Assembly: GCA_965242855.1 (NCBI GenBank)
Contig: OZ251509.1
Coordinates: 337,648 to 401,647, forward strand
DNA from: Alphaproteobacteria bacterium
GTDB lineage: Bacteria > Pseudomonadota > Alphaproteobacteria > UBA828
Direction: 5' to 3'
DNA: 64,000 nt
Below the pieces are notes generated by a model, which saw only the letters and a list, made by a program, of their open reading frames with translations, was not told where the DNA came from and made no database searches. Of the stretch, positions 7,037 to 44,450 are shown piece after piece; positions within the stretch are counted from its first letter, which is position 1; each line of letters starts with the position of its first letter. The position numbers and the translations under genes were made by a program.

Positions 7037-7362
7037 GACGTCATCTGCCTCATCCGTTCTCTGGCGGTCGCGAGCACCCGGTGCGGCGTCTTGCGCGACT
7101 TCTTCGCGAAGACGTGTAGAATCACCATCCGCCGTCCGGGCGCCATCGCGTAGATCCCTCTGGCGATCCCACCTTCGGCCCTGACTCGAAGTTCCCAGAG
7201 CTTGCCGTCTAGATGCTTGACGTGCGGTGCGTGAAGCGCCTCCGGACCGACATTCTCCACCACCTCAAGCAACCGGGTCAGCCGGGCGCGCAACACCACT
7301 GGCAGAGCCTCGATTTCGGCCTCGGCGGCCGCGACGATTTCGACGTTGGTTTTCCCAGACAT
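7024..7362 (-). CDS. type II toxin-antitoxin system RelE/ParE-superfamily toxin (HigB-like, COG4679). The conserved toxin core starts at M54, while the listed ORF extends to 7521 with a repetitive low-GC N-terminal extension
   Basis: 'LPVVLRARLTRLLEVVENVGPEALHAPHVKHLDGKLWELRVRAEGGIARGIYAMAPGRRMVILHVFAKKSRKTPHRVLATARER' matches the phage Gp49/HigB-like toxin family. It sits upstream of an HTH antitoxin in the toxin-first arrangement. Confidence 0.7.
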   Translation of the reverse strand: MSGKTNVEIVAAAEAEIEALPVVLRARLTRLLEVVENVGPEALHAPHVKHLDGKLWELRVRAEGGIARGIYAMAPGRRMVILHVFAKKSRKTPHRVLATARERMRQMTSWRS

Positions 7363-7480
7363 CAGTTTCCCTTTCTTGATCTCGCCCTCGACGGCTCCGA
7401 CGTTGATTTCCTTAGACATCGGCTTTCCTTTGATTTTCATAGACACCAGCTTTCCCTTCCCTTTCTCGATTCCGGCCTCG
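7340..7480. repeat. Degenerate direct repeats (~45-55 bp units, 'agacatc(a/g)g(c)tttcc...ttgat(c/t)t...') of low GC inside the 5' extension of the toxin ORF
   Basis: Repeated 'gttggttttcccagacatcagtttccctttcttgatctcgcc' / 'gttgatttccttagacatcggctttcctttgattttcatagacaccagctttccc'. The translation gives repeated KGK-x-MS(G/K)K-x-NV motifs. Confidence 0.5.
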
Positions 7481-7608
7481 ATGGCCGCAACGGTTTCGAC
7501 CATCCAACCCACGCCCGTCATATAGCGTATTCGCTATGTGTATTCAAGCGCCGGAGACGATGGTCCCGGGATTGACGATGCCGACCCGTATTCTCCCCTC
7601 CGCCGCGC

Positions 7609-10791: not shown

Positions 10792-11874
10792 TCAGGGGTG
10801 GATTTTCGGCGGCGGCGCGGCTTCGCTCTTTTCGCGTCGTCGTGTCCTGCCTCCGTCGCGCGGCAGCGGCGCGTCGACGGCGCCGTTCCACAGGATGCCG
10901 GGGCGGGGCAGTCGGTAGTAATTGGACGGGCTGGCGGGGGCGCCGGCGGGCTTCGCCGCTCCCTGCGGCGCGCGGACGAAGCGCCCGAGGGCCGCCTCGC
11001 AGTAGTCGCGCACGCGCTCGATACATATCCAACGGCGCTCCAGGCGTTCGCAGACCTCGCCGGTCACGCAACTGCCGGCGAAGGGATCGACGACGAGATC
11101 GCCGGGTTCCGTCAACATGCGGATGAAGTATTCCGGAAGTTCCGCCGGATAACGGGCAGGGTGCGGCTTGAGGCCCTTCTCCTCGCAGTAGCGCAGATAG
11201 AAGCTGTTGCTCTCCGTATTGGGAATCGCGATGAGGTTGGGTGGGATCGCGGCGCCGTTGTCCGTCTTGAATTTCTCACTGATGTCGTGGCCGGACGGGC
11301 GCTTGCTGGCCTTGTAGCCCTTGGCCAGAAGGTCCTGCATACTCGGACTGTAGGGTTGAAGGACCCGCCGGTTGCTTGCCTTCGGCCAGGGTGTCTTGGA
11401 CAGCCACCATACGGTATTCACGGCATCCTTGACGCGAATCCGGCGCACCGTGACCCACTCCGCCGGCGTCGGGAGTTTCGACGGATTCCACCAGTAAAAA
11501 TCCTGCGCCAAGTGGAATTCCAGCTCCTCGCACAGCATGATCAGGAGCTTGAAGTGATAGAGATTACGGGTGGGGGAGCCCTTGTTCCATGTGCCGCCGA
11601 TGTCGATGACCAGGCTGCCGCCGCTCTTGAGGACACGCCGGAACGCGGTGCCGAACGGCTTGAACCATTCGACGTATTCGTTCGCCGCGACGTTGCCGTA
11701 ATCCTTCTTGCGGACCAGCCCGAAGGGCGGGCTCGTCACGATCAGATCGACCGATTCGCCCGGCTGTTCCGCAAGCATATCGATACTGTCGCCATGCACG
11801 ATCTGCCCGAAGCGCGTTTCGTGAAAGCTCTTGAAGGGCAGCTTTGTTTCTCTTGTCCCACTTCCCTCCTCCAT
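10792..11874 (-). CDS. site-specific DNA methyltransferase, beta-class N4/N6 amino-MTase (motif IV 'TSPPF' precedes motif I 'DPFAGSCVTG'); start at internal M34
   Basis: 'DLIVTSPPFG' (DPPY-type motif IV, the Ser variant typical of N4C enzymes) and 'HPARYPAELPEYFIRMLTEPGDLVVDPFAGSCVTG' (AdoMet motif I). The gene body is high-GC, but the first ~45 codons (11830-11973) are low-GC. Confidence 0.8.
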   Translation of the reverse strand: MEEGSGTRETKLPFKSFHETRFGQIVHGDSIDMLAEQPGESVDLIVTSPPFGLVRKKDYGNVAANEYVEWFKPFGTAFRRVLKSGGSLVIDIGGTWNKGSPTRNLYHFKLLIMLCEELEFHLAQDFYWWNPSKLPTPAEWVTVRRIRVKDAVNTVWWLSKTPWPKASNRRVLQPYSPSMQDLLAKGYKASKRPSGHDISEKFKTDNGAAIPPNLIAIPNTESNSFYLRYCEEKGLKPHPARYPAELPEYFIRMLTEPGDLVVDPFAGSCVTGEVCERLERRWICIERVRDYCEAALGRFVRAPQGAAKPAGAPASPSNYYRLPRPGILWNGAVDAPLPRDGGRTRRREKSEAAPPPKIHP

Positions 11875-11891
11875 ATCTATAACCGCCTTCA

Positions 11892-13136
11892 CTACTTCCG
11901 ATCGATCCACCGCGCCGACACATCGAATTCGAATAGCTCTTTCTTTGAATTTCTCTTGCGGATCACGCGGCATTCAACATTTTCAAATCCAAGGCGATTC
12001 AACATCACCAGATAAAGTTTTTCCACAGACAAAAGCACATCATAAAATGTTGAATTTCCGACTATGTAGTGAAGTTCTGCATTTTCACTCAGAACGGATA
12101 CCAACGAATTGAAATGCTCCCACATGTCATCGAAATATTTGGCTACATATTTTGCCAATATCTCCCCGCTCTTGTTGTCGTGTCGTGCTATCCCTTCCAG
12201 CGCACCATCAAGCAGCGGGTGTTGGAACGGCTCTGTAGGACGTTTCCAACCGATTAACCGGCTAGTCGCCGCACCCCATGTGCCACCAATTGCTGACCAG
12301 TCCAGCTCACCGGCATCGCGTCCATTGTCCAGAAATGAAAGCCAATACATATACGGCCGCAATTCACGAATATACGACATCCGGTTCGCGTATGGCGGAG
12401 ATGTGATCACCAAGTTAAAAGGACCATCTACCGCTTCGGACAATTTTCTTGCGTCACCAAGGACCACATACCCCACTCCTTTCGGTTTCTGCTTCGCTCC
12501 TGCCACAACAAATTCCACGTTCTCGTTGAATACTCGTCTCATATCGATATTGAGTGGGATGTGCAACAGCTGATCATCCTTGAAAGACATGGACTGATGA
12601 TTGAAGGCCGCGTTTGACAACCCGATCAGTGTTCTACAAAATGCTACCAACAGAAGATTCCGTTCCGGCGCGTCCTCTATAGTTTCTGCTTCAATAGCGG
12701 CCCTTAGCGTGCACAGGAATTCCAATGCATTGGGGCACCACCACCTTTCAATATTATGAATAGGTGGCGCCTCCACCGGTATAATCGTGTTTCGTTTCAC
12801 TGCTTCGACTACCCGAGTACATGCGTCGCGAGTCGAAGCTATCGAAGCGTCGGAATATTGTGCTGTCTTCGCTTTTCCAAGCCAGATCAAAAAGGGATTA
12901 ATATCCGTCGTTACGCCTTCGTGTCCATGATAAGCCGCACTCAGTGCTGTTGTTGCCATCCCACAAAACGGGTCAAGTATGCGCAGCGGATATTTACATT
13001 GACCCATCAATTCTTCAACAACTTTCACCGAGTACGCCGGCGTCAAACGCAGCCACCCATACCGACCGGATTTCGCGTTAAACTTATGCGTGTAATCTGC
13101 CCTTTGGCGCGGTTTTTCTTTAGCAAAAATGCTCAT
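11892..13136 (-). CDS. site-specific DNA methyltransferase (alpha-like order: motif I 'DPFCGMATT' then TRD then motif IV 'ITSPPY'), low-GC
   Basis: 'RILDPFCGMATTALSAAYHGHEGVTTDINP' and 'FNLVITSPPYANRMSY'. GC is ~45%, versus ~69% in the flanks. It overlaps the downstream gene by 4 nt. Confidence 0.8.
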   Translation of the reverse strand: MSIFAKEKPRQRADYTHKFNAKSGRYGWLRLTPAYSVKVVEELMGQCKYPLRILDPFCGMATTALSAAYHGHEGVTTDINPFLIWLGKAKTAQYSDASIASTRDACTRVVEAVKRNTIIPVEAPPIHNIERWWCPNALEFLCTLRAAIEAETIEDAPERNLLLVAFCRTLIGLSNAAFNHQSMSFKDDQLLHIPLNIDMRRVFNENVEFVVAGAKQKPKGVGYVVLGDARKLSEAVDGPFNLVITSPPYANRMSYIRELRPYMYWLSFLDNGRDAGELDWSAIGGTWGAATSRLIGWKRPTEPFQHPLLDGALEGIARHDNKSGEILAKYVAKYFDDMWEHFNSLVSVLSENAELHYIVGNSTFYDVLLSVEKLYLVMLNRLGFENVECRVIRKRNSKKELFEFDVSARWIDRK

Positions 13137-13948
13137 TTCATCTCCGCGGATAGGAGGGTCGATAGAATCACCTCTATCTCCTTACACAGCGTAGATCTAT
13201 TCCGTTCGAAAAACGCCTCTAAGTCATAGAGAACGACATTTCTCATGAAGTCATAAGTTGATACAAGCGGATCATTTCTGCCAGTAATTCCGGTGATCAC
13301 AGACCATTTCTCTGCTCGGTAACGTGTAAGTACATCGCCGTCTATCTGTCCCGACAAGATTACCGCGCATGGGAAGTAACCTTTCGTATACGCTACTGCC
13401 GCGTTCGCGATGTCGGCGTTCTGCCGCTTCGAATCCTTACTTTTATAGCCCTGCCGTATTTCGAAAACCACACCTGTCAAACTTTTAAACACTTCTGGAT
13501 CAACATCTAACATTTTCGCAGAATCCTTCATCCATTTGTAAAACCGATCTTGTTTACTTTTGTTGTTAATCTTCTCAAGCGAAACTCGTCCGTCCAGATG
13601 CAGTGTCCGCATTCGTCCACTTGGCAACGGAATTTTATAGGACCAGATTACATCCTCCTCCGACAAATCAAAGGCATCTTTTAATATCTTTTGAAACAAC
13701 CTCTCACAGCCAATCCCGATCTGCCGATATACGCTTGTCATGCCGCCAGCCGCTTTGTGAGCAGCGTACATCATCGGATTGTCTAAGCCGAACCAACTGT
13801 AAAACACGTCTCTCCGATAAAGATCTTGGAACTGCGCAAGCGTTAGTCCGCCGCCTTTTGCGCCCTGGCCAAACTTCGGTTTATAGTGCGCACAGACCCT
13901 GATCGCATCCAGGATGATCTGTAGGTATTCCTCGTCAGTTGCACTCAT
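13133..13948 (-). CDS. putative type II restriction endonuclease (cognate to the adjacent methyltransferases); no family recognised
   Basis: 271-aa low-GC protein co-directional and translationally coupled (ATGA overlap) with the alpha-class MTase. Candidate catalytic residues are 'HLDGR...VVFEIRQGYKSK'. The call rests on context only. Confidence 0.4.
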   Translation of the reverse strand: MSATDEEYLQIILDAIRVCAHYKPKFGQGAKGGGLTLAQFQDLYRRDVFYSWFGLDNPMMYAAHKAAGGMTSVYRQIGIGCERLFQKILKDAFDLSEEDVIWSYKIPLPSGRMRTLHLDGRVSLEKINNKSKQDRFYKWMKDSAKMLDVDPEVFKSLTGVVFEIRQGYKSKDSKRQNADIANAAVAYTKGYFPCAVILSGQIDGDVLTRYRAEKWSVITGITGRNDPLVSTYDFMRNVVLYDLEAFFERNRSTLCKEIEVILSTLLSAEMK

Positions 13949-14003
13949 ACTGTTCTCTTTTCTCCATTGTGAACAGAGTCTTTAAAAATAACCAGCTGGA
14001 GAT

Positions 14004-14837
14004 CTATTCATGGTTGTTCTCATCAATTTTCACTCTAGCTGTCGTAAGGATGCTCTCTTTCACACTCTTATAGTGACTGTTCTTCATCGTCACGGTCTCC
14101 GCGTGGAAGCTGTGTCGGCGGACGAGCACGACGATCTCGTCCGAGTAGTCATAGGTCATCATGAAATTGACGCCGCTCTCCGCGAGCGTGGAGAACAGCG
14201 CGGCGTGATCGACCGTGTGGTGGGCATAGAGCCGTGCGCCGGCGCGCTTGCCGCCGCCCGCCGTGTAGGGGGGATCGATGAAGAAGCGGGCGCCCGCGTC
14301 ATCCCCCGCCATGTCGCGCAGCTCCCTCACCCCGTCGCCCTCCCGGAACGTGATCTGGTCGGCGTGCTGCTGTATCGCGCGCAACCGCTCGATGAGCGTG
14401 TCGGGATACCAGCGGGACGCGACGCCGTTGCCGTTCTCGCCCCGCTTGATCAGCGCCGCGCCGGGGGCCAGCACGCCGCCGCGCCGCGTCCGGTTCAGAA
14501 CCAGTGTGCGGAAGCCGCGTTCGATGGTGTCGGCCGGCGCCTGGTTCGCCATCCGCTCCACCGCCTCCCGTGTGGGCGTGAAATCGCGGACGCGGGCCAT
14601 GAGCGCGTCGCCGTACTTCAGGGCCGCGAACCAGAAGGCGGCCACGTCGGGGTCCCGCTCGACCATGATCGCGCGTTTGGCCAGCCCCTCCATGACCGCC
14701 GTGAGGGACACGACAGCGCCGCCGGCGAACGGCTCCACGATCAGCTGGTGTGGCGCGCCCGTGGCCAGCCATGCGCGGACGTGCGGGATCAGCCACGTCT
14801 TGCCGCCTGGATAGCGTAAGGGGCTGCGCTGCGGCAC
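14004..14837 (-). CDS. Dam-family (D12 class, alpha) N6-adenine DNA methyltransferase. The likely start is GTG at 14835-14837, and upstream ORF sequence to 15086 is probably not translated
   Basis: 'PLRYPGGKTWLIPHV' (Dam motif), 'IVEPFAGGAVVSL' (motif I) and 'FFIDPPYTAGG' (motif IV DPPY). The body is high-GC, but the last ~35 codons (14004-14110) are low-GC. Confidence 0.75.
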   Translation of the reverse strand: MPQRSPLRYPGGKTWLIPHVRAWLATGAPHQLIVEPFAGGAVVSLTAVMEGLAKRAIMVERDPDVAAFWFAALKYGDALMARVRDFTPTREAVERMANQAPADTIERGFRTLVLNRTRRGGVLAPGAALIKRGENGNGVASRWYPDTLIERLRAIQQHADQITFREGDGVRELRDMAGDDAGARFFIDPPYTAGGGKRAGARLYAHHTVDHAALFSTLAESGVNFMMTYDYSDEIVVLVRRHSFHAETVTMKNSHYKSVKESILTTARVKIDENNHE

Positions 14838-14945
14838 CGTAGCGACGTTGGCAGCGGGGATCGGGGAGATGGGGAATTCGGTGGTATCTCGCTTGGGGGC
14901 ACGGATGCCTCGTGGAGCGTCAACCGATTCGTACTCCGCCTCGCG

Positions 14946-14987
14946 CACGCTCCGCTCCCTGCCCCGCACGCTCCGCTCCCCGCCCCG
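14946..14987. repeat. 2 x 21-bp near-perfect tandem direct repeat (gcacgctccgctccc[t/c]gcccc) in the divergent intergenic region between the Dam-family MTase and the acyl-CoA synthetase
   Basis: Read directly: 14946-14966 and 14967-14987 differ at one position. Confidence 0.6.
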
Positions 14988-15072
14988 TCGAATCCACCAC
15001 AGGATAGCACGGCGGCCACGATTGAAGAGCCGCCGGGCGGACGGCATGATCGGACCGCGCGGGGAGGCGCCC

Positions 15073-16710
15073 ATGCACGCGACCATGATGGACTATCCGC
15101 TCACCCTCACCCACCTCCTGGAGAGGGCCGGCACGCTGCTGCGCGACGGCGAGATCGTCACGCGCCTGCCCGACCGATCGACGCACCTCTATCGCTTCGG
15201 AGACTTCGCCCGGCGCGCCCGCAGGCTCGCCTCGGCGCTGCGGCGGGCCGGGCTCCGGCGCGGCGAGCCGGTGGCCACCATGATGTGGAACACCCATCCC
15301 CACCTCGAGGCCTATTTCGGCATCCCCTGCGCCGGCGGCGTGCTGCATACGCTCAACTTCCGTCTCCACCCGCGCGACATCGCCTATGTCGCGAACCACG
15401 CCGGGGACCGGTTCTTCATCGTGGACGACACGCTCCTGCCGGCGTTCGAGGAGATCAGGCCGCACATCGCGCCCGAGCGGGTCTTCGTGACGGCGCTCTC
15501 CGGTGCCCCGGTGCCGGACGGCTACGAGAGCTACGAAGCCCTGCTCGCCTCCGGCGCCCCGGAGGACGATCCGCCCCGGCTGGAGGAGACGGAACCCTGC
15601 GGCGTCTGCTACACCTCCGGCACCACCGGCCGGCCCAAGGGCGTGGTCTATTCCCACCGCGCCATGGTGCTGCACACCTTCGCGCTCTGCATGACCGAGC
15701 CCTTCGGCATCCGCCAGCGGGACCGCGTCATGCCGGTGGTGCCCATGTTCCATGCAAACGCCTGGGGGCTGGCCCACGCCGTCGCCATGGCCGGCGCGCG
15801 CTGCGTCCTGCCCGGGCCCCATCTCGACCCGGCGAGCCTGCTCGACCTCTGCGCGGCCGAGCGGGTGACCCTGGCGGCCGGCGTGCCCACGATCTGGAAC
15901 GGGGTCCTCCAGGCGCTGGACGCGGAGCCCGGCAGGTGGAGCCTGGACCCGGCCTTGCGCACGGTGGTCGGCGGCTCGGCGGCGAGCGAAGCGATGATCC
16001 GCGGCTTCGACAGGCACGGCATCCGCACCATCCATGCCTGGGGCATGACGGAGATGACCCCGATCGGCACGGCCTCCGTTCTCAAGGCGTCGATGGACGA
16101 TCTCGATCGGGACACGCAGTACGCATATCGGGCGAAGCAGGGGCCGGCCATGCCCTTCGTCGAGATGCGGCTGGTCAACGACGCCGGCGTCGCGCCGTGG
16201 GACGGCGAGACCATGGGCGAATTGCAGGTGCGCGGGCCGTGGGTCGCCGCCGGCTACTACCGCCCGGACGAGCCGGGCGACCGCTGGACCGACGACGGCT
16301 GGTTCGGCACCGGCGACGTCGCCACGGTCGACTCCGAAGGGTTCATGAAGATCACCGACCGCACCAAGGACCTGATCAAATCCGGCGGCGAGTGGATCAG
16401 CTCGGTCGATCTCGAGAACGCGCTGATGGGCCATCCCGCCGTCCGCGAGGCGGCGGTGATCGGAGCGCGCCACGAGAAGTGGGACGAACGCCCGCTCGCC
16501 GTCGTCGCCCTGATGGAGGGTGCGGCGGCCGACGCGGGCGCGCTCCACGCCCATCTCGCGGAGCGGTTCGCCAAATGGTGGCTCCCCGACGACTACGTCT
16601 TCGTCGACGAGATCCCGCGCAATTCCACCGGCAAGTTCCTCAAATCCGCCCTCCGCGAACGCTACGGAGAGCGGCCCTGGCCGAGGGCCGCCGCCGCGCA
16701 AGCGCCGTAG
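15073..16710 (+). CDS. AMP-dependent synthetase/ligase (fatty-acid--CoA ligase family)
   Basis: ATG at 15073 ('[12 protein letters not shown]') is preceded by GGGGAGG. AMP-binding motifs are '[12 protein letters not shown]', 'GWFGTGD' and 'KSGGEWISS'. The N-terminal 75 aa of ORF 14848..16710 are artefact. Confidence 0.85.
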
Positions 16711-16844: not shown

Positions 16845-17789
16845 ATGAAGGAACTCGGACGTTTTTGCGCCACGGCCGGGCTGGTTATGCTTGTGCTTAC
16901 CGCGTGCGCGGCAGACCTCACGCCTTTGCACAAAGCGGCCGTATCGGGCGACATCGAAGCGGTTCGCTCTCTGCTCGCGGGCGGTGCGAATGTCAACGCG
17001 CGTGCCGAGGACAAGGTCACGCCACTGCACTTCGCGGCGATGATCAGCGACGCCGCGACGGTCCGCGCCCTGATCGAGGACGGTGCGATCGTCAACGCGC
17101 GCGCCAAGGGCAAGTTCACGCCACTGCACGGTGCAGCGCAGGCTGGCAACGCCGCGACGGTCCGCGTTCTGCTCGCGGGCGGTGCGGACGTCAATGCGCC
17201 CGCCGAAGGCAAGCTCACGCCCCTGCATTATGCAACAGCGGCAGGGATATATCTCGCGCTCAAGGGCGTCGACGTGGAAAAGGCCGAGGTTCACGAAGTG
17301 ATGACGCGCATTGAAGAAATACCCGGGTCCAACTCTCTCAATACTCTCGATCTAAGCGAGATGGCCGCCATGGCGAATCTGATCGGCACCGTTCACCGGG
17401 CAGCAACGATCCGCGCTTTGCTTGCGGGTGGCGCGGACGTCAATGCGCGTGCCAAGCACAAACTCACGCCCCTGCACCTCGCGGCGACGTACGACGACAT
17501 CGTGGCGGTCCGCGCCCTGATCGAGGGTGGCGCGAACGTTAATGCGCGCGCCGAAGGCAAGGCCACGCCCCTGCATGTCGCGGCGCTCTTCGGCAACGCC
17601 GGGGCGATCGAGGCCCTGCTTGAGGCGGGCGGCAACCCGAACGCGGTGGCCTTCGGCTGCGGGCCGATGGATGTGGCCCGGCTTCGCATGAAAGCGACCG
17701 AGAGGTCCATCGCGCCGTTTCGGGAGGCCGTCGAGCGATTGCTCGCGGCAGGCGCCCAACCCCGGAATGGGTGCAAGAAGCTCCCCTGA
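16845..17789 (+). CDS. ankyrin-repeat lipoprotein (signal peptide with lipobox 'LTAC'); about 6 ANK repeats with an atypical lower-GC insertion between repeats 4 and 5
   Basis: 'MKELGRFCATAGLVMLVLTAC' is followed by repeated 'TPLH.AA..G....V..LL..GA.VNA'. The ORF 15285..17789 upstream of 16845 is high-GC read-through. Confidence 0.75.
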   Translation: MKELGRFCATAGLVMLVLTACAADLTPLHKAAVSGDIEAVRSLLAGGANVNARAEDKVTPLHFAAMISDAATVRALIEDGAIVNARAKGKFTPLHGAAQAGNAATVRVLLAGGADVNAPAEGKLTPLHYATAAGIYLALKGVDVEKAEVHEVMTRIEEIPGSNSLNTLDLSEMAAMANLIGTVHRAATIRALLAGGADVNARAKHKLTPLHLAATYDDIVAVRALIEGGANVNARAEGKATPLHVAALFGNAGAIEALLEAGGNPNAVAFGCGPMDVARLRMKATERSIAPFREAVERLLAAGAQPRNGCKKLP

Positions 17790-20714: not shown

Positions 20715-20751
20715 ACCGCCGCGCGCGCCGCGCCCGGCCAGGAAACGCGCC

Positions 20752-22209
20752 ATGGAACACTCGTGGAAACCGATACGCGACTACACGGTCGCGCCGGAGA
20801 CGCTCGCACAGGACGAACTCCGGACCCTCGAGAGCGTATGGAGCGAACAACGCGGCCGACTGGAGACATTGGATGCGTTCCAGGAATTCAACGAGCGTCT
20901 GAAGCGCGAGTGGGCGATCGAAACAGGCCTGATCGAGCGCCTGTACGTCCTCGATCGCGGCATAACGCAGCTGCTGATCGAGCGCGGCATCGATGCATCT
21001 CTGATCCCGCACGGCGCGGCGAGCGACCCCCGGACCGTGGCGTCCATGATCGGCGATCATGAGGCGGTCGTGGACGGCATCTTCGCGTTCGTAAAAGGGC
21101 GACGCCCTCTGACCACGGGTTACGTCAAGGAGATCCACGCCCTCATTACCCGTCATCAGAACACCGTGGAAGGCATGGACCAATTCGGCAGGACGACCCA
21201 AGTCGACCTGATCCGCGGCGATTACAAAAAACAACCGAACAACCCTCTAACGCCCGACGGCGAAATCCACCCGTACTGCCCGCCGGAACACGTCGCCTCC
21301 GAAATGGACCGCCTGATCGACATGCATCGGAGGCACACGACCGTCCCGCCGGAGGTCGAAGCCGCCTGGCTGCATCACCGGTTCACGCAAATCCACCCGT
21401 TCCAGGACGGAAACGGACGTGTCGCGCGGGCGCTCGCGACGCTGATTTTCGTGAAAAGCGGCTGGTTTCCGCTGGTCGTGCGGGATCGGGAACGCGGAAC
21501 ATATATCGACGCCCTGGAAGTCGCGGACGGCGGCGATCTCGCCCCCTTAGTCACGTATTTCGTGGGCATCCAGAAGGACGAATTCGTCAAGGCGCTGAGC
21601 ATCGCACGTAGTGTTCTACAATCCACCCGAGCCGAAGACGCGATTCGCGCCGTGCGGAGAGAACTGCAGAGAAGAAAGGACTCGTTGATCGAAGAATGGC
21701 AAACCGCATGTGACACCGCCGACAGACTCCGGGAAAGGGCCCAACATCGGTTGCAGCAGGTCTCTTCCGCCTTGCAACAGGAGATGGAAGGGTTGTTCGA
21801 TAGCAATACATTCTTTACCGACGGCGCGGGAAATGGAGATTTCAACAGCCATTACTACCGGTTCCAGATCATCGCTACGGCGAAAAGGCTTGGTTATTTC
21901 GCCAATACCGACACCTATCGCTCCTGGGTGCGGTTGGTCACAAAGAACGACAGCCAGAGCGAACTTCTGATTGCGTTCCATGGCATCGGGCATGAATTTC
22001 AGGGCGTGCTCGTCTGTTCAGCTTGCTGGTTTCAGCGAGTCGAGACAGAGCACGGAGAACGCGAGATCGGCGGCATCGAACCGATGGCCGACAGGGTGTT
22101 CCAGATCAACTACAAGGAAACTCTGGAGCGGACCGAGGAGCGCTTCCTTCCCTGGCTCGAGGAATGCATCGTGCGGGCGATCGGGCTCTGGCAGGCGACG
22201 GCGCTTTGA
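20752..22209 (+). CDS. Fic (filamentation induced by cAMP) family protein with a ~190-aa C-terminal extension of unknown function; lower GC (~58%)
   Basis: Canonical Fic active-site motif 'HPFQDGNGRVARAL'. The N-terminal helix 'EWAIETGLIE' is a degenerate version of the inhibitory SxAIEGN motif. Confidence 0.85.
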   Translation: MEHSWKPIRDYTVAPETLAQDELRTLESVWSEQRGRLETLDAFQEFNERLKREWAIETGLIERLYVLDRGITQLLIERGIDASLIPHGAASDPRTVASMIGDHEAVVDGIFAFVKGRRPLTTGYVKEIHALITRHQNTVEGMDQFGRTTQVDLIRGDYKKQPNNPLTPDGEIHPYCPPEHVASEMDRLIDMHRRHTTVPPEVEAAWLHHRFTQIHPFQDGNGRVARALATLIFVKSGWFPLVVRDRERGTYIDALEVADGGDLAPLVTYFVGIQKDEFVKALSIARSVLQSTRAEDAIRAVRRELQRRKDSLIEEWQTACDTADRLRERAQHRLQQVSSALQQEMEGLFDSNTFFTDGAGNGDFNSHYYRFQIIATAKRLGYFANTDTYRSWVRLVTKNDSQSELLIAFHGIGHEFQGVLVCSACWFQRVETEHGEREIGGIEPMADRVFQINYKETLERTEERFLPWLEECIVRAIGLWQATAL

Positions 22210-22331
22210 GCCCGCGCACCCCGCCGCGTGCTCCCCCGTGCCGGGCGGCGTTGACACCCGCCGCCGGTCTCTCCACACTCTAGCCCAGAGGGAGACCGCG
22301 CCGGAGCGGCGGGAGATCGAGGTAAGGTGGC

Positions 22332-27230: not shown

Positions 27231-27234
27231 CCCA

Positions 27235-27263
27235 TTGACAAGTCCGTTTAATCACAGTATACG
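27235..27263 (+). promoter_or_regulatory. sigma70-like promoter (TTGACA-17nt-TATACG) upstream of the GmrSD-like gene
   Basis: Read directly as 'ttgacaagtccgtttaatcacagtatacg'. It lies at the left edge of the low-GC island. Confidence 0.3.
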
Positions 27264-27301
27264 TTACGATAGTGGGACATTCATCCGAGGGAGCACCAGC
27301 T

Positions 27302-29129
27302 ATGAAGACCGACATCCTTACTCTTACTGATGTATTCCACAGGGAGATCCACTACATAATCCCACCATTTCAGCGCCCGTATGTATGGACCCAAGAAGAA
27401 CAATGGGAACCTTTGTGGGAGGATGTTCGTAACACTGCCGAAAGCTATCTCGAAACACTGAGGGATTGCAAAGGAAACGAGGTGGAGGCCAAAAGCCAAG
27501 TTCCACCCCATTTTCTAGGTGCCATTGTTAATCAACAGATCTCCACCCCAACAAAAGCAATCTCTCAGCGACGAGTCATTGACGGTCAACAGAGGTTAAC
27601 CACGCTACAACTTCTTCTTGGTGCACTTCGACAAGTTTGTGGAGAGTTCGACCTAGAAGCTGATGCCGAGTTTCTGTCAGGATTCGTTATCAACCCGAAA
27701 CCCCGAGTTGGCAACGACGAAGAACATATCTTCAAGTTATGGCCGACGAGTCTTGATCGAGAAGCGTTTAAACACGCCATGTATAATGGCTCGCCTACCA
27801 ACGCCTTCGAAAATTCTCGAATCGTTCAGGCTCACGAATACTTCCGATTGCAAATGGAAGAATGGCTCAAGGGCCAGTCAGACACTAGTTGCGGCATGGA
27901 TGCATTGACAACCGCGACAGTTAGTTTGTTTCAGCTAGTTGTTATCGATCTGGATCATCAGGAAGATCCGCATATCATTTTTGAATATCATTTTTGAAAC
28001 CCTAAACGCGCGCGGTACCCCGCTTTTGCAGTCCGAACTCATCAAAAATTATGTAATGTCCAAGACTGACGAAGCGACCGTTTGGGGTGATTTGGGAACT
28101 GGGTGGTGGCGGGAAGAAGTCGGACGAGGGCGGCGCCGACTTCCACGCATAGACTGGCTATTTTATTACTGGATATCGATGCGCAAGGCCGAGGCGTCTG
28201 CGGAAGACGCCGCCAACATACCACCTCCCCGCGTGTTCAGCGCTTTTCAAGCTTACTCGAAAGAGCGTCCGTCGATAGATGATGTCATGTCCGAAGTCAA
28301 GCGCGACTTGGCAAATTATCGACGCTTTGAAATCGGCGAAGAGACAACGGCCGACGAACGTCAACTCCGAGACCGCTTTGAAGTTATGCAAGTGGGTGCA
28401 GTAACTCCTACTCTGCTGCTTCTCCTATCGGCACCCTATGAGCAGCGAATGAAGGGCTTGCACGCCATGGAAAGTTTTTTGGTAAGGCGGATGATTTGCC
28501 GCGATACTGCCAAGGATTACAATCGGCTAACTCTTTCCCTGGCTGGTGAATTGCAGAAACGAGACCTGAACGATGCTGGGGCGGTCGTTTTCGATTTTCT
28601 AAAGCGTCAGACTGCAGACGCCAGGGAATGGCCAAACGACAAAACTCTGAAGGACAGCTTGGTCCAGTCTCCTCTCTACCGTCTACTGACACGCGGGAGG
28701 CTGCGTCTTATCCTGGAGGGTGTGGAGAAGCAACTGCGCCAGGAATCAAAGGCGGAGTGCTCCGATGTCCCACGAGGCCTCCCGATAGAGCATGTGATGC
28801 CCCAGAGCTGGGAGTCGAATTGGCCAATTCCCGTCGATTCTGACCTGGAAACGGCAACCGATGAACGAAATCGCCTCATCCACACGATCGGTAATCTGAC
28901 GCTGGTCAACGATCGCCTTAACTCGGCTATGTCTAACGATGCATGGGAATCCAAACGCAAGATTCTAAACGATCACAGCGTTCTGTTTCTGAACAAAACC
29001 CTGTTGACTGAAACCGAAGAAAGGGATTGGGACACCGAGTCGATCCAAGCCCGCGGCAGACGCTTGGCTAATATCGTCGCACGAGTTTGGCCGGGTCCGG
29101 ACTCTGACATATGGTCAAACAAACTGTGA
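27302..29129 (+). pseudogene. GmrSD-like type IV (modification-dependent) restriction endonuclease (DUF262 + DUF1524), disrupted by a frameshift
   Basis: The N-terminal ORF (27302..27997) has DUF262 motifs 'IPPFQRPYVW' and 'IDGQQRLTT'. The C-terminal ORF (27939..29129, other frame) has DUF1524/HNH-like 'IEHVMPQSW...NLTLVNDRLNS'. The reading frames join exactly if one copy of a 13-bp tandem duplication is removed ('DPHIIFETLNARGTPL'). GC is ~47%. Confidence 0.8.
27971..27998 (+). repeat. exact 13-bp tandem duplication (atatcatttttga x2) causing the frameshift in the GmrSD-like gene
   Basis: Read directly: 'atatcatttttgaatatcatttttgaaaccc'. Confidence 0.85.
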
Positions 29130-29166
29130 CTCGGTCCTATAAAGTGCCGTGCGCTATTCTGGAGCG

Positions 29167-43091: not shown

Positions 43092-44450
43092 TCAGGCGAG
43101 ACCGTAGGCGCGCGCCACGAGTTCGATCGGGTGGTGGGCGCGCCCGGCGGCCGGCAAACCCGCGCCGGGATCGTCCTTCCCTTCCGCAAGGCGCTCCATG
43201 CCGTTCACGATGTGGACGCCGGCAAGCGGGCACTCCGAGGCGAGGTAGCGGCGTCCCGCCTCGCGCGCCTTGCGGGCGACCGGGCGGCCGACCCTCAGCG
43301 CCGTCTCGTGGAAGCCCCTGGTGACGCCGAGCGCGCCGCCATGGCCGGAGCAGCGCTCGATGACCGTGACTTCCGTGTCCGGCAGCAACGCCAGCATGTC
43401 GGCCGACTTGCGGCCGACGTTCTGGGCGCGCTCGTGGCACGGCAGGTGCAGCGTGATCCCGCCTTCGAGCGGCGCCAGCCCCGGCGCCAGCCCGGCGTCG
43501 CGGGCGAGGCCGACGACATATTCGCAAATGCCGTTGGCGTGTTTCGCGAGGCGCGCGATCGCCGGCTCCTCGGGCAGGACGAGCGGCCACTCGAGCTTCA
43601 GCATCAGGGCACAGCTCGCCACCGGCGCGATTACGTCGTAGCCGCGGTCGATCCATTCCCCGAGCGCCGCCGCGACGCGACGCGCGCCCTCGGCGACGCG
43701 CGCCACGTCGCCCTCCTCGAGCTGCGGCATCCCGCAGCAGCCGGAATAGGCGACGGCGGTCTCGACGCCGTTCCGCGCCAGCACGGCCCGCGCGGCCTCG
43801 CCGATCTCGGGCCGGTTGTAGTTGGCGAAGCAGGTGGCGTAGAGCACCGCCTTGCGGCCGAAGCCCGGCGCTTCGCGGTTCACCACCGGCGCCTCCGCGG
43901 CGGCGCGGTCGAGCAGCGTGCGCCGGTGGTAGCGCGGCAGCAGCGCCTCCCTGTGGACGCCGGCGACGGCCTCCAGCGCCGCCCGCGCCGGGCGGTTGCC
44001 CCGCGCCGCACCCCAGTTCATGAGCGGCGCCAGGGCGCGCCCCAACCTGCCGTTCCGGTCGGTTTCGCCGAGCCGCCGCGTGGCCTTCGTGTGGCGCCGT
44101 CCCTCGTGCCGGCCGGCCGCCCGGTAGCGCAGCATGAGATGGGGCACGTCGACGTTCCACTCGTGCGGCGGCGTGTAGGGGCACATCGTCATGAAGCACA
44201 TGTCGCAGAGCGTGCAGGCGTCGGCGACCGTCTTGAAGTCGGCGGAATCGACCGACTCGAGTTCGCCCGTCTCGGACTCGTCGATCAGGTCGAAGAGACG
44301 GGGGAAGGAGTCGCAGAGGTTGAAGCAGCGCCGGCAGCCATGGCAGATGTCAAAAACCCGCCGCATCTCCCGCTCGAGCGGCGCGCGGGCATGGAAGTCC
44401 GGGTTCCGCCAGTCGAGCGGATGGCGGAACGGCGCGCCATCGTCGCTCAT
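43092..44450 (-). CDS. (Fe-S)-binding protein, heterodisulfide reductase subunit D/GlpC-like (CCG domains)
   Basis: 'CHGCRRCFNLCDSFP', 'CTLCDMCFMTMCPY' and two Cys-rich CCG regions ('ATCFANYNRPEIG', 'LPCHERAQN'). Confidence 0.7.
   Translation of the reverse strand: MSDDGAPFRHPLDWRNPDFHARAPLEREMRRVFDICHGCRRCFNLCDSFPRLFDLIDESETGELESVDSADFKTVADACTLCDMCFMTMCPYTPPHEWNVDVPHLMLRYRAAGRHEGRRHTKATRRLGETDRNGRLGRALAPLMNWGAARGNRPARAALEAVAGVHREALLPRYHRRTLLDRAAAEAPVVNREAPGFGRKAVLYATCFANYNRPEIGEAARAVLARNGVETAVAYSGCCGMPQLEEGDVARVAEGARRVAAALGEWIDRGYDVIAPVASCALMLKLEWPLVLPEEPAIARLAKHANGICEYVVGLARDAGLAPGLAPLEGGITLHLPCHERAQNVGRKSADMLALLPDTEVTVIERCSGHGGALGVTRGFHETALRVGRPVARKAREAGRRYLASECPLAGVHIVNGMERLAEGKDDPGAGLPAAGRAHHPIELVARAYGLA

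What the first reader, a model, noticed from the sequence alone, without database searches (positions are those of the whole stretch)
27302..29129. GmrSD-like type IV restriction endonuclease inactivated by an exact 13-bp tandem duplication
A low-GC (~47%) island carries a DUF262 ('IPPFQRPYVW', 'DGQQRLTT') plus DUF1524 ('IEHVMPQSW') gene, split into two overlapping ORFs. At 27971-27996 the sequence 'atatcatttttga' occurs twice in tandem. Deleting one copy restores a continuous reading frame 'DPHIIFETLNARGTPLLQSELIKNY' that matches the conserved DUF262 linker. The result is either a recent slipped-strand inactivation of a modification-dependent restriction enzyme, or a reversible on/off switch. 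Loss of type IV restriction would suit a host acquiring foreign methylated DNA, and the neighbouring locus adds new methyltransferases.
Basis: seen in the sequence. Interest (0 to 1): 0.7.

Follow-up and report, generated by a model that had tools for sequence, protein, structure and literature searches.

The report
Frameshifted GmrSD-type restriction nuclease gene
A single-gene phage-defence nuclease of the GmrSD family is broken by a perfect 13-base tandem duplication that is absent from its five closest relatives; this is a recent and fairly ordinary gene inactivation, with no evidence that it acts as a switch.

Summary
It is the longest exact tandem duplication in the 64 kb; about 3e-5 are expected by chance in the gene. 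Removing one copy gives a 604-aa ORF (27302-29129) with full GmrSD_N and GmrSD_C domains and every published GmrSD motif. The break falls inside the invariant IFETLNARGT block, which contains the FxxxN motif.

The five closest homologues (79-92% aa) are intact. All sit in the same slot between the aldolase-II and FAD-oxidase genes, and each carries one copy of the region. The window allele shows no excess of amino-acid changes, so the lesion is recent.

The gene is not a recent arrival. It occupies a fixed defence slot in a population of about 96%-identical alphaproteobacteria, probably sponge-associated. One strain carries an unrelated GmrSD gene there in reverse orientation.

The "switch" idea has no support, because relatives have no repeat tract. 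The methyltransferase link is only anecdotal. Those genes lie 12 kb away in a variable R-M cassette, and one strain shows the reciprocal pattern of a broken methyltransferase with an intact GmrSD.

Substrate specificity is unknown. The nearest solved fold is DndI, then SspE, then BrxU. Read-level confirmation was not possible.

The parts
27235..27263 (+). Candidate promoter TTGACA (27235-27240), 17-nt spacer, TATACG (27258-27263), in the 71-nt spacer after the aldolase stop codon
   Evidence: Read directly from the sequence. The consensus scan did not call it, because it requires T at position 6 of the -10 hexamer. Inference only.
27287..27293 (+). Shine-Dalgarno-like GAGGGAG, 8 nt before the ATG at 27302
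   Evidence: Sequence.
27302..27997 (+). 5' fragment of the broken gene: 231 codons, then a premature TGA at 27995-27997. It encodes most of the GmrSD_N (DUF262, ParB/Srx-like NTPase) domain and ends ...DPHIIFEYHF*
   Evidence: Pfam GmrSD_N covers residues 9-247 of the repaired protein. The exact 241-aa GTG-start version is in the protein collection on one 3.56-Mb contig.
27581..27595 (+). DGQQR NTP-binding motif (residues 94-98)
   Evidence: Invariant in 121 sequences. Motif role taken from PMC4619093 and PMC11662687.
27972..27984 (+). 13-bp unit ATATCATTTTTGA, copy 1 (the ancestral position)
   Evidence: Orthologues L001 and L086 have exactly this 13-mer once.
27985..27997 (+). 13-bp unit, copy 2 (the duplication). 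It shifts the frame by +1 and its last three bases form the premature TGA stop
27998..29129 (+). 3' remainder of the gene in the +1 frame (mechanical ORF 27939..29129). It encodes the rest of the FxxxN motif, the helical linker and the GmrSD_C (DUF1524, His-Me/HNH) nuclease domain. No Shine-Dalgarno sequence precedes any internal start codon
   Evidence: Pfam GmrSD_C covers residues 439-586.
28785..28805 (+). IEHVMPQ: the (E/D)H motif of the HNH active site (residues 491-497 of the repaired protein)
   Evidence: E492, H493 and P496 are invariant. Motif defined in PMC4619093.
28890..28922 (+). GNLTLVNDRLN: the two Asn residues of the HNH motif (residues 526-536)
   Evidence: G526, N527, L528 and L530 are invariant; N536 is conserved in at least 90%.

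Best explanation
This is a chromosomal, single-gene GmrSD-family defence nuclease. It has an N-terminal DUF262 ParB/Srx-like NTPase, a helical linker and a C-terminal DUF1524 HNH nuclease. A one-off 13-bp tandem duplication inside the invariant IFETLN (FxxxN) block has recently knocked it out.

The duplication shifts the frame by +1 and creates a TGA within its own second copy. Translation from the native start therefore yields a 231-aa DUF262 stub with no nuclease domain. The downstream 1.1 kb has no ribosome-binding site of its own and is most likely untranslated.

Shown here: the lesion, the domain content, the intact single-copy state of the five closest homologues, the conserved genomic slot, and the lack of further decay.

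Inferred: that the intact protein restricts modified (or otherwise non-self) DNA, that the fragments are inactive, and that the duplication is present in the organism rather than only in the assembly.
For: - The duplication is exact and far beyond chance.
- The repaired ORF of 604 aa matches GmrSD_N (2e-35, profile positions 2-198 of 199) and GmrSD_C (2.4e-27, positions 1-137 of 138). PADLOC models match end to end: Orf5 2.5e-85, mREase_IV 1.3e-59, HEC-06 2.1e-59.
- All motifs listed in PMC4619093 are present: QR, VIDGQQRLTTLQLLL, FETLN, IEHVMPQ, IGNLTLV...N, NDAWESKRK, W..I..R...L......VW.
- 120 homologues show no indel in the block around the break, and I226, F227, E228, T229, N231, R233, G234 and T235 are invariant.
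- The five closest homologues (92, 89, 89, 81, 79% aa) are intact at 599-615 aa. Four lie between the aldolase-II and FAD-oxidase genes; the fifth contig (L086, 2.1 kb) holds the gene and aligns into both flanks. Each has one copy of the region.
- Window-specific changes are 15 synonymous and 12 non-synonymous, against 16/20, 28/28 and 19/26 in the relatives. Pairwise dN/dS is 0.19-0.41, so there is no sign of prolonged relaxed selection.
- There is no second copy of the gene in the window.
- The AF2 model (pLDDT 88.9) places the break in a short helix (224-230) directly after the core strand 210-217.
- Precedent for adaptive loss of such a gene: PFLU4242, a DUF262+DUF1524 protein of P. fluorescens (PMC8544851).
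Against: - No reads or population data could be examined. The allele is known from a single 3.56-Mb assembled contig, so a consensus or minority-variant artefact is not excluded.
- The N-frame ends ...CAT TTT TGA, a sequence on which a +1 slip of tRNA-Phe would restore the frame with a 4-aa insertion. Some full-length product therefore cannot be ruled out.
- A TTG at 27981 overlaps the stop and could in principle allow coupled re-initiation of a C-terminal piece.
- One window-specific substitution, D107G, lies at a position that is Asp in 98% of 120 homologues. The allele may already have been impaired before the duplication.
Confidence: 0.75

Rival explanations
1. The inactivation was selected because the nuclease conflicted with newly acquired DNA modification. 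The candidates are the two SPPF/SPPY-motif methyltransferases (probably N4-cytosine or N6-adenine) of the variable R-M cassette at 10792-13948. On this view, loss of the GmrSD gene relieved self-restriction. This is a causal add-on to the best explanation, not an alternative to it.
For: - The window has a low-GC R-M cassette: N6_N4_Mtase 393 aa (1.5e-40), a 414-aa MTase-like protein with DPFCG and SPPY motifs, a 271-aa ORF with no Pfam match, and a DPPY D12-class MTase.
- The cassette differs between strains. L089 has an Mrr_cat gene instead.
- Strain L088 shows the reciprocal state. It has the same cassette, but its N6_N4 MTase is broken by a 7-bp and a 112-bp deletion, while the GmrSD gene at the slot is intact.
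- Experimental precedent: loss of the DUF262/DUF1524 gene PFLU4242 removes the cost of incoming plasmids (PMC8544851).
Against: - This rests on n = 2 strains, and L088's GmrSD is a different gene, only 25% identical.
- The cassette is 12 kb away.
- The state of the cassette in strains with an intact orthologue (L001, L083, L085, L087) could not be retrieved.
- The modification type of the MTases and the specificity of the nuclease are both unknown.
Confidence: 0.15
2. The duplication is an assembly or consensus artefact, or a minority strain variant fixed in the consensus of a metagenome-assembled genome. The organism's gene would then be intact.
For: - The allele is found in one assembled contig only.
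- Thirty-eight N-terminal-only fragments of this wider family (215-395 aa), some with visibly out-of-frame C-terminal tails, occur in public assemblies. Some of these could be sequencing frameshifts.
Against: - Typical sequencing errors are 1-2-base homopolymer indels. An exact 13-bp tandem copy is a replication-slippage type of mutation and not a known systematic error (own knowledge).
- The flanking genes in the window read through cleanly.
Confidence: 0.1
3. The duplication acts as a reversible ON/OFF switch. Precise loss of one 13-bp copy by slippage would restore the gene, so the population hedges between restriction-proficient and restriction-deficient cells.
For: Perfect adjacent direct repeats are deleted precisely at elevated rates (own knowledge). 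The rest of the gene is undamaged, so a revertant would probably be functional.
Against: - There is no repeat tract at this site in five orthologues or in 120 homologues, so this is not an evolved contingency locus.
- Only two copies are present.
- No heterogeneity data are available.
- An adjacent hairpin that might promote slippage is not significant (z = 0.5).
Confidence: 0.07
4. The locus still makes active enzyme. One route is +1 ribosomal slippage at CAT-TTT-TGA, giving a full-length protein with an EYHF insertion. The other is two separately translated pieces, analogous to the separate GmrS and GmrD proteins.
For: - The TTT-TGA context allows perfect re-pairing of tRNA-Phe in the +1 frame at a stop codon (sequence; analogy with prfB CUU-UGA, own knowledge).
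- GmrS and GmrD exist as separate proteins in some systems (PMC4619093).
- Because of the duplication, IIFE is encoded in both pieces.
Against: - There is no Shine-Dalgarno-like stimulator at the right spacing.
- The site is not conserved, since it was created by the duplication.
- The split lies inside the DUF262 domain, within its most conserved block, and not at the natural domain boundary.
- No ribosome-binding site precedes any internal start codon.
Confidence: 0.04

Closest known systems
GmrSD family Type IV restriction enzymes (Eco94GmrSD, BrxU, V. cholerae TgvB-like; Pfam PF03235 + PF07510)
   Same: Same two-domain architecture in one polypeptide of about 600 aa. All family motifs are present: QR, DGQQR, FxxxN and the E/D-H-N-N HNH motif. 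It is a stand-alone gene.
   Different: - Sequence relation to the characterised members is remote: BrxU gives Foldseek E = 1e-3 at 10% identity and no phmmer hit.
- Substrate is unknown.
- The gene here is frameshifted.
DndI (PDB 9JFL) and SspE (6JIV/7DRS), phosphorothioate-sensing DUF262-DUF1524 effectors
   Same: These are the best structural matches: DndI at E = 3.9e-15, TM 0.53, aligned over nearly the full length; SspE at E = 3e-11. They share the DGQQR NTPase and the HNH nickase layout.
   Different: - Identity is only 15-16%.
- No dnd or ssp modification genes appear among the called genes of the syntenic loci, which span about -22 to +10 kb.
- The PT-sensing Tyr (DndI Y25, SspE Y30; PMC11662687) is Phe23 here, and is Phe in at least 90% of the family.
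PFLU4242 of Pseudomonas fluorescens SBW25 (DUF262 + DUF1524)
   Same: It is a chromosomal stand-alone gene of the same architecture. Loss-of-function mutations in it arise and are selected when new mobile DNA is acquired (PMC8544851).
   Different: That case has an experimentally shown fitness effect. Here nothing links the lesion to any acquired element.
Simple-sequence-repeat phase-variable restriction-modification genes (for example Haemophilus or Neisseria mod and hsd genes)
   Same: Frame-shifting change in repeat copy number within a restriction gene.
   Different: Those loci carry long tracts of 1-7-bp units that are conserved across strains. Here a unique 13-mer is duplicated once and relatives have no tract.

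Membership tests
GmrSD family (Type IV restriction, PF03235 + PF07510) | N-terminal DUF262/GmrSD_N (ParB/Srx-like) domain | tested here: met
   Pfam GmrSD_N E = 2e-35, residues 9-247, profile positions 2-198 of 199, on the repaired ORF.
GmrSD family (Type IV restriction, PF03235 + PF07510) | C-terminal DUF1524/GmrSD_C (His-Me/HNH) domain | tested here: met
   Pfam GmrSD_C E = 2.4e-27, residues 439-586, profile positions 1-137 of 138.
GmrSD family (Type IV restriction, PF03235 + PF07510) | Conserved motifs QR, (I/V)DGQQR, FxxxN, (E/D)H..PQ, GNLxL...N (PMC4619093) | tested here: met
   FQR, VIDGQQR, FETLN, IEHVMPQ and IGNLTLVNDRLN are present in the repaired ORF. In the actual sequence FxxxN is split by the duplication.
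GmrSD family (Type IV restriction, PF03235 + PF07510) | Uninterrupted coding sequence, or natural separate gmrS and gmrD genes split at the domain boundary | tested here: not met
   There is a +13-nt frameshift at codon 228, inside the DUF262 domain, with a premature TGA at 27995-27997.
GmrSD family (Type IV restriction, PF03235 + PF07510) | NTP-stimulated cleavage of modified DNA (hmC, glc-hmC or 5mC) | not testable with these tools
   This needs biochemistry or phage assays on the repaired allele.
Phosphorothioate-sensing effectors (DndI / SspE) | Fold similarity to DndI or SspE | tested here: met
   Foldseek: 9jfl E = 3.9e-15, TM 0.53; 7drs E = 3e-11. Profile search against PDB: 9jfl E = 7.4e-14.
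Phosphorothioate-sensing effectors (DndI / SspE) | Genetic linkage to dndBCDE or sspABCD modification genes | tested here: not met
   Called genes and Pfam hits of syntenic loci L001, L085, L087 and L088 show only metabolic genes, the R-M cassette and Fic. The rest of the genome was not examined.
Phosphorothioate-sensing effectors (DndI / SspE) | PT-sensing tyrosine before the QR motif (DndI Y25, SspE Y30; PMC11662687) | tested here: not met
   The aligned residue is Phe23. F23 is at least 90% conserved in 121 family members.
Phase-variable (contingency) restriction locus | Repeat tract of several units at the same site in related alleles | tested here: not met
   Five orthologues have one copy or a diverged single copy. 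No indel occurs in this block in 120 homologues.
Phase-variable (contingency) restriction locus | Copy-number heterogeneity within a population or within reads | not testable with these tools
   Raw reads are not available. The allele is on record from one contig only. Scans of the genome and metagenome collections found no further copy.
Programmed +1 frameshift site (prfB-like) | Slippery P-site codon followed by an in-frame stop, plus an upstream SD-like stimulator, conserved among homologues | tested here: not met
   TTT-TGA is present. There is no SD-like element at about 3-nt spacing, and the site is absent from all homologues because the duplication created it.

The most novel reading that the evidence does not exclude
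The frameshift may be the selected resolution of an autoimmune conflict between this GmrSD nuclease and the cytosine or adenine methylation laid down by the swappable R-M cassette 12 kb upstream. In this symbiont population the two loci would then decay reciprocally. The window has intact MTases and a broken GmrSD. Strain L088 has an MTase broken by a 7-bp deletion and an intact GmrSD. Because the lesion is a perfect tandem repeat, it would also be readily reversible if the cassette were lost.
Probability: 0.12. Interest if true: 0.55.

Novelty: new member of a known kind. Interest (0 to 1): 0.27.

Why it matters
On its own this is a routine pseudogene call. It is useful for annotation: the two ORFs should be merged and flagged as one disrupted GmrSD gene.

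The context is of more interest. A set of about 96%-identical symbiont genomes carries one fixed slot holding highly diverged, or even unrelated, GmrSD genes, and a second slot holding alternative R-M cassettes. Small indels knock out one component or the other. If the reciprocal pattern holds in more strains, it would be a natural example of conflict between Type IV restriction and acquired methyltransferases shaping a defence repertoire. It would parallel the experimentally evolved loss of PFLU4242.

Tried and rejected
- Exact-pattern scan for either allele in the species-representative genomes found 0 hits.
- The same scan in the JGI metagenomes found 0 hits.
- A relatives scan of the JGI metagenomes found nothing closer than 45%.
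- Exact-product look-ups of the window's HydB, FAD-oxidase and N-fragment (ATG and GTG starts) found nothing in the positional index. I therefore could not recover the window's own record name, its coverage or sister assemblies.
- I could not reach the R-M site in any strain with an intact orthologue.
- A hairpin (27951-27970) next to the duplication was considered as a slippage promoter and rejected: its folding energy is no better than shuffles (z = 0.5).
- The promoter scan did not call the TTGACA-17-TATACG element, so it remains a visual match only.
- NCBIfam gave no hit.
- The meaning of the PADLOC 'Orf5' model name could not be established, so I use it only as a score.
- Other lower-GC stretches (49-53 kb, 60 kb, 35.3 kb) are ABC-transporter genes or have no Pfam match, and are not defence genes.

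Full report
**1. Observation**

The sequence at 27960-28010 reads AGGAAGATCCGC-ATATCATTTTTGA-ATATCATTTTTGA-AACCCTAAACGCG.
- Tandem Repeats Finder reports period 13, 2.1 copies and 100% identity at 27972-27998.
The register is ambiguous by one base.
- An exhaustive search for exact tandem duplications of unit 8-39 in the 64 kb finds nothing longer; the next longest is a 12-mer at 43470.
- From base composition, 2.8e-5 such events are expected in the gene and 4.9e-3 in the window. None occurred in 5000 second-order Markov simulations of the gene.

The ORF list shows the two overlapping frames: 27272/27302..27997 and 27939..29129. Deleting one unit gives a 1815-nt ORF of 604 codons starting at the ATG at 27302. 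That ATG is preceded by GAGGGAG at an 8-nt distance and by a TTGACA-17-TATACG element. The scan tool does not call this element.

**2. What the gene is**

The repaired protein matches Pfam GmrSD_N (residues 9-247, 2e-35) and GmrSD_C (residues 439-586, 2.4e-27), both essentially end to end. It also matches full-length PADLOC models of GmrSD-like defence proteins: Orf5 2.5e-85, mREase_IV 1.3e-59, HEC-06 2.1e-59, with weaker hits to SspE.

Every motif tabulated for the family by Machnicka et al. (PMC4619093) is present:
- FQR
- VIDGQQRLTTLQLLL
- FETLN
- IEHVMPQ
- IGNLTLV..RLN
- NDAWESKRK
- the C-terminal W...I..R...L......VW

An AlphaFold2 model built on 121 sequences has mean pLDDT 88.9. Its best PDB matches are:
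- DndI (9JFL): E = 3.9e-15, TM 0.53
- SspE (7DRS, 6JIV)
- BrxU (7P9K): E = 1e-3

A sequence-profile search agrees. The protein is therefore a clear member of the GmrSD superfamily, but it is remote (10-16% identity) from every characterised member.

Its specificity is unknown. It lacks the phosphorothioate-sensing Tyr of DndI and SspE, having Phe23 at that position (PMC11662687). No dnd or ssp genes lie in the syntenic neighbourhoods. A stand-alone, modification-dependent (Type IV-like) role is therefore the most likely one, by inference.

**3. Where the break falls**

The duplication sits at codon 228, inside the block DPHIIFETLNARGTPL.
- In an alignment of 121 sequences, I226, F227, E228, T229, N231, R233, G234 and T235 are invariant. 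No sequence has an indel there.
- This block contains the FxxxN motif of DUF262.
- In the model it is a short helix (224-230) directly after the core strand 210-217.
- The native frame now ends ...IIFEYHF followed by TGA (27995-27997). This gives a 231-aa stub that keeps DGQQR but lacks the linker and the nuclease.
- The internal start candidates in the downstream frame (TTG 27939, 27981 and 28026; ATG 28056) have no Shine-Dalgarno sequence.

**4. Relatives**

The five closest proteins are 92, 89, 89, 81 and 79% identical and 599-615 aa long. Fetching their contigs shows the following.
- Four lie between the class-II aldolase and the FAD-linked oxidase genes, as in the window (L001/L002, L083/L084, L085, L087). 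The fifth contig (L086, 2.1 kb) holds little beyond the gene but aligns with the window across both gene boundaries.
- All five are intact, and each has a single copy of the region. L001 and L086 have exactly ATATCATTTTTGA once.
- The flanks are 91-97% identical to the window at the DNA level. These are therefore strains or sister species of one alphaproteobacterial lineage.
- L087 is the chromosome of "MAG: Alphaproteobacteria bacterium" OZ241738.1.
- More distant homologues (54-58%) lie in MAGs of Dehalococcoidia and Latescibacteria, and one at 44% in Candidatus Poriferisodalis. Related contigs also carry ankyrin-repeat genes. Together these point to a sponge-associated community. This is an inference from names only.

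**5. Age of the lesion**

In a codon alignment of the six alleles, changes unique to the window number 15 synonymous and 12 non-synonymous. The three nearest relatives show 16/20, 28/28 and 19/26. Pairwise dN/dS is 0.19-0.41.

The window allele deviates from positions that are at least 90% conserved as often as its intact sisters do: 20 times against 15-23. There are no other stops or frameshifts. The duplication is thus young relative to strain divergence (dS about 0.15).

One caveat is D107G, a change unique to the window at a position that is Asp in 98% of 120 homologues.

**6. Not a recent island**

GC3 of the gene is 0.53 against 0.91-0.94 for its neighbours, so it is compositionally foreign. 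Even so, it occupies the same slot in all relatives.

Its alleles are far more diverged than the flanks:
- GmrSD dS: 0.14-0.62
- HydB dS: 0.04-0.13
- FAD-oxidase dS: 0.09-0.18

In strain L088, homology with the window stops exactly at the aldolase stop codon (27231). A different GmrSD-family gene, 558 aa and only 25% identical, lies there on the opposite strand. The site is a defence-gene slot with allele turnover.

**7. The methyltransferase idea**

The only methyltransferases in the window are at 10792-15086 on the minus strand:
- an N6_N4_Mtase of 393 aa with an SPPF motif
- a 414-aa MTase-like protein with DPFCG and SPPY motifs
- a 271-aa ORF with no Pfam match, possibly the endonuclease
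- a D12-class MTase with a DPPY motif, lying in native-GC DNA

This cassette is itself variable. L089 carries an Mrr_cat gene in place of the 414- and 271-aa genes. L088 carries the same cassette as the window, but its N6_N4 MTase is disrupted by a 7-bp deletion between GGGA microhomologies and by a 112-bp deletion.

The window (intact MTases, broken GmrSD) and L088 (broken MTase, intact GmrSD) are therefore reciprocal. This is suggestive, but it is a single pair involving different GmrSD genes. I could not retrieve the cassette site for any strain carrying an intact orthologue.

The experimental precedent that loss of a DUF262/DUF1524 gene relieves conflict with incoming DNA is PFLU4242 (PMC8544851).

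**8. Switch, read-through and artefact**

*Switch.* Nothing marks the site as an evolved contingency locus. There is no tract in relatives, only two copies are present, and the adjacent hairpin is not significant. Precise reversion is mechanistically plausible but untested.

*Read-through.* The new stop context CAT-TTT-TGA would allow a +1 slip of tRNA-Phe that restores the frame with a 4-aa insertion. There is no stimulatory element, so I treat this as a low-probability leak.

*Artefact.* The duplicated allele is on record from a single 3.56-Mb contig. No other assembly with it could be found. Read-level verification therefore remains the decisive missing step.

A search with the N-terminal fragment returned 38 other N-terminal-only members of the wider family, some with visibly out-of-frame C-terminal tails. 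Disrupted copies, whether real or artefactual, are thus common for this family.

**9. Verdict**

The observation and the core of the interpretation hold: a GmrSD-family nuclease gene is inactivated by one exact 13-bp tandem duplication. The result is a recent pseudogene of a known kind. The switch reading and the methyltransferase-conflict reading are not supported by anything beyond plausibility and one reciprocal strain pair.

Noticed in passing
window 27231-29148; L088:19207-20899: The gap between the aldolase-II and FAD-oxidase genes is a defence-gene slot. Orthologous GmrSD alleles there are much more diverged (dS 0.14-0.62) than the flanking genes (dS 0.04-0.2). Strain L088 carries an unrelated GmrSD-family gene (25% identity, 558 aa) in the opposite orientation, with homology to the window ending exactly at the aldolase stop codon.
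   Followed up: partly
window 10792-15086 (minus strand); L088:4917-9157; L089:4760-8211: Variable restriction-modification cassette between a porin gene and an AMP-ligase gene. The window has an N6_N4 MTase (SPPF), a 414-aa MTase-like protein (SPPY), a 271-aa ORF with no Pfam match (GC 46%) and a D12-class MTase. L089 has an Mrr_cat gene in place of the middle two. In L088 the first MTase is frameshifted by a 7-bp deletion and also has a 112-bp deletion.
   Followed up: partly
window 20727-22220: A Fic/DOC-family gene (485 aa, HPFQDGNGR motif, GC 60%) is a presence/absence polymorphism. It is present in the window, L083 and L087, and cleanly absent from L001, L085 and L088.
   Followed up: partly
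window 27620-27622 (codon 107): The window allele has Gly at a position that is Asp in 98% of 120 homologues and Gly in none. This may be a second, earlier impairment of the protein.
   Followed up: partly
window 7058-7569 and 16859-17659: Two further segments break synteny with the related strains. A segment of about 510 bp is absent from L088 and L089. A stretch of about 800 bp after the AMP-ligase gene is replaced by, or diverged from, an ankyrin-repeat gene region in L083, L087 and L089.
   Followed up: no
proteins P0258-P0295: Thirty-eight N-terminal-only fragments (215-395 aa) of the same GmrSD subfamily (48-59% identity) occur in public assemblies. A few are on megabase contigs, and some have visibly out-of-frame C-terminal tails. 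P0263 ends at exactly the same motif (...NPHIIWT). Disruption of this family, real or from sequencing, is frequent.
   Followed up: partly
loci L003-L009: The nearest homologues outside the lineage (52-57% identity) are in MAGs of unrelated phyla (Dehalococcoidia, Latescibacteria, unclassified bacteria), with Candidatus Poriferisodalis at 44%. This suggests horizontal spread of the subfamily within one, probably sponge-associated, community.
   Followed up: no
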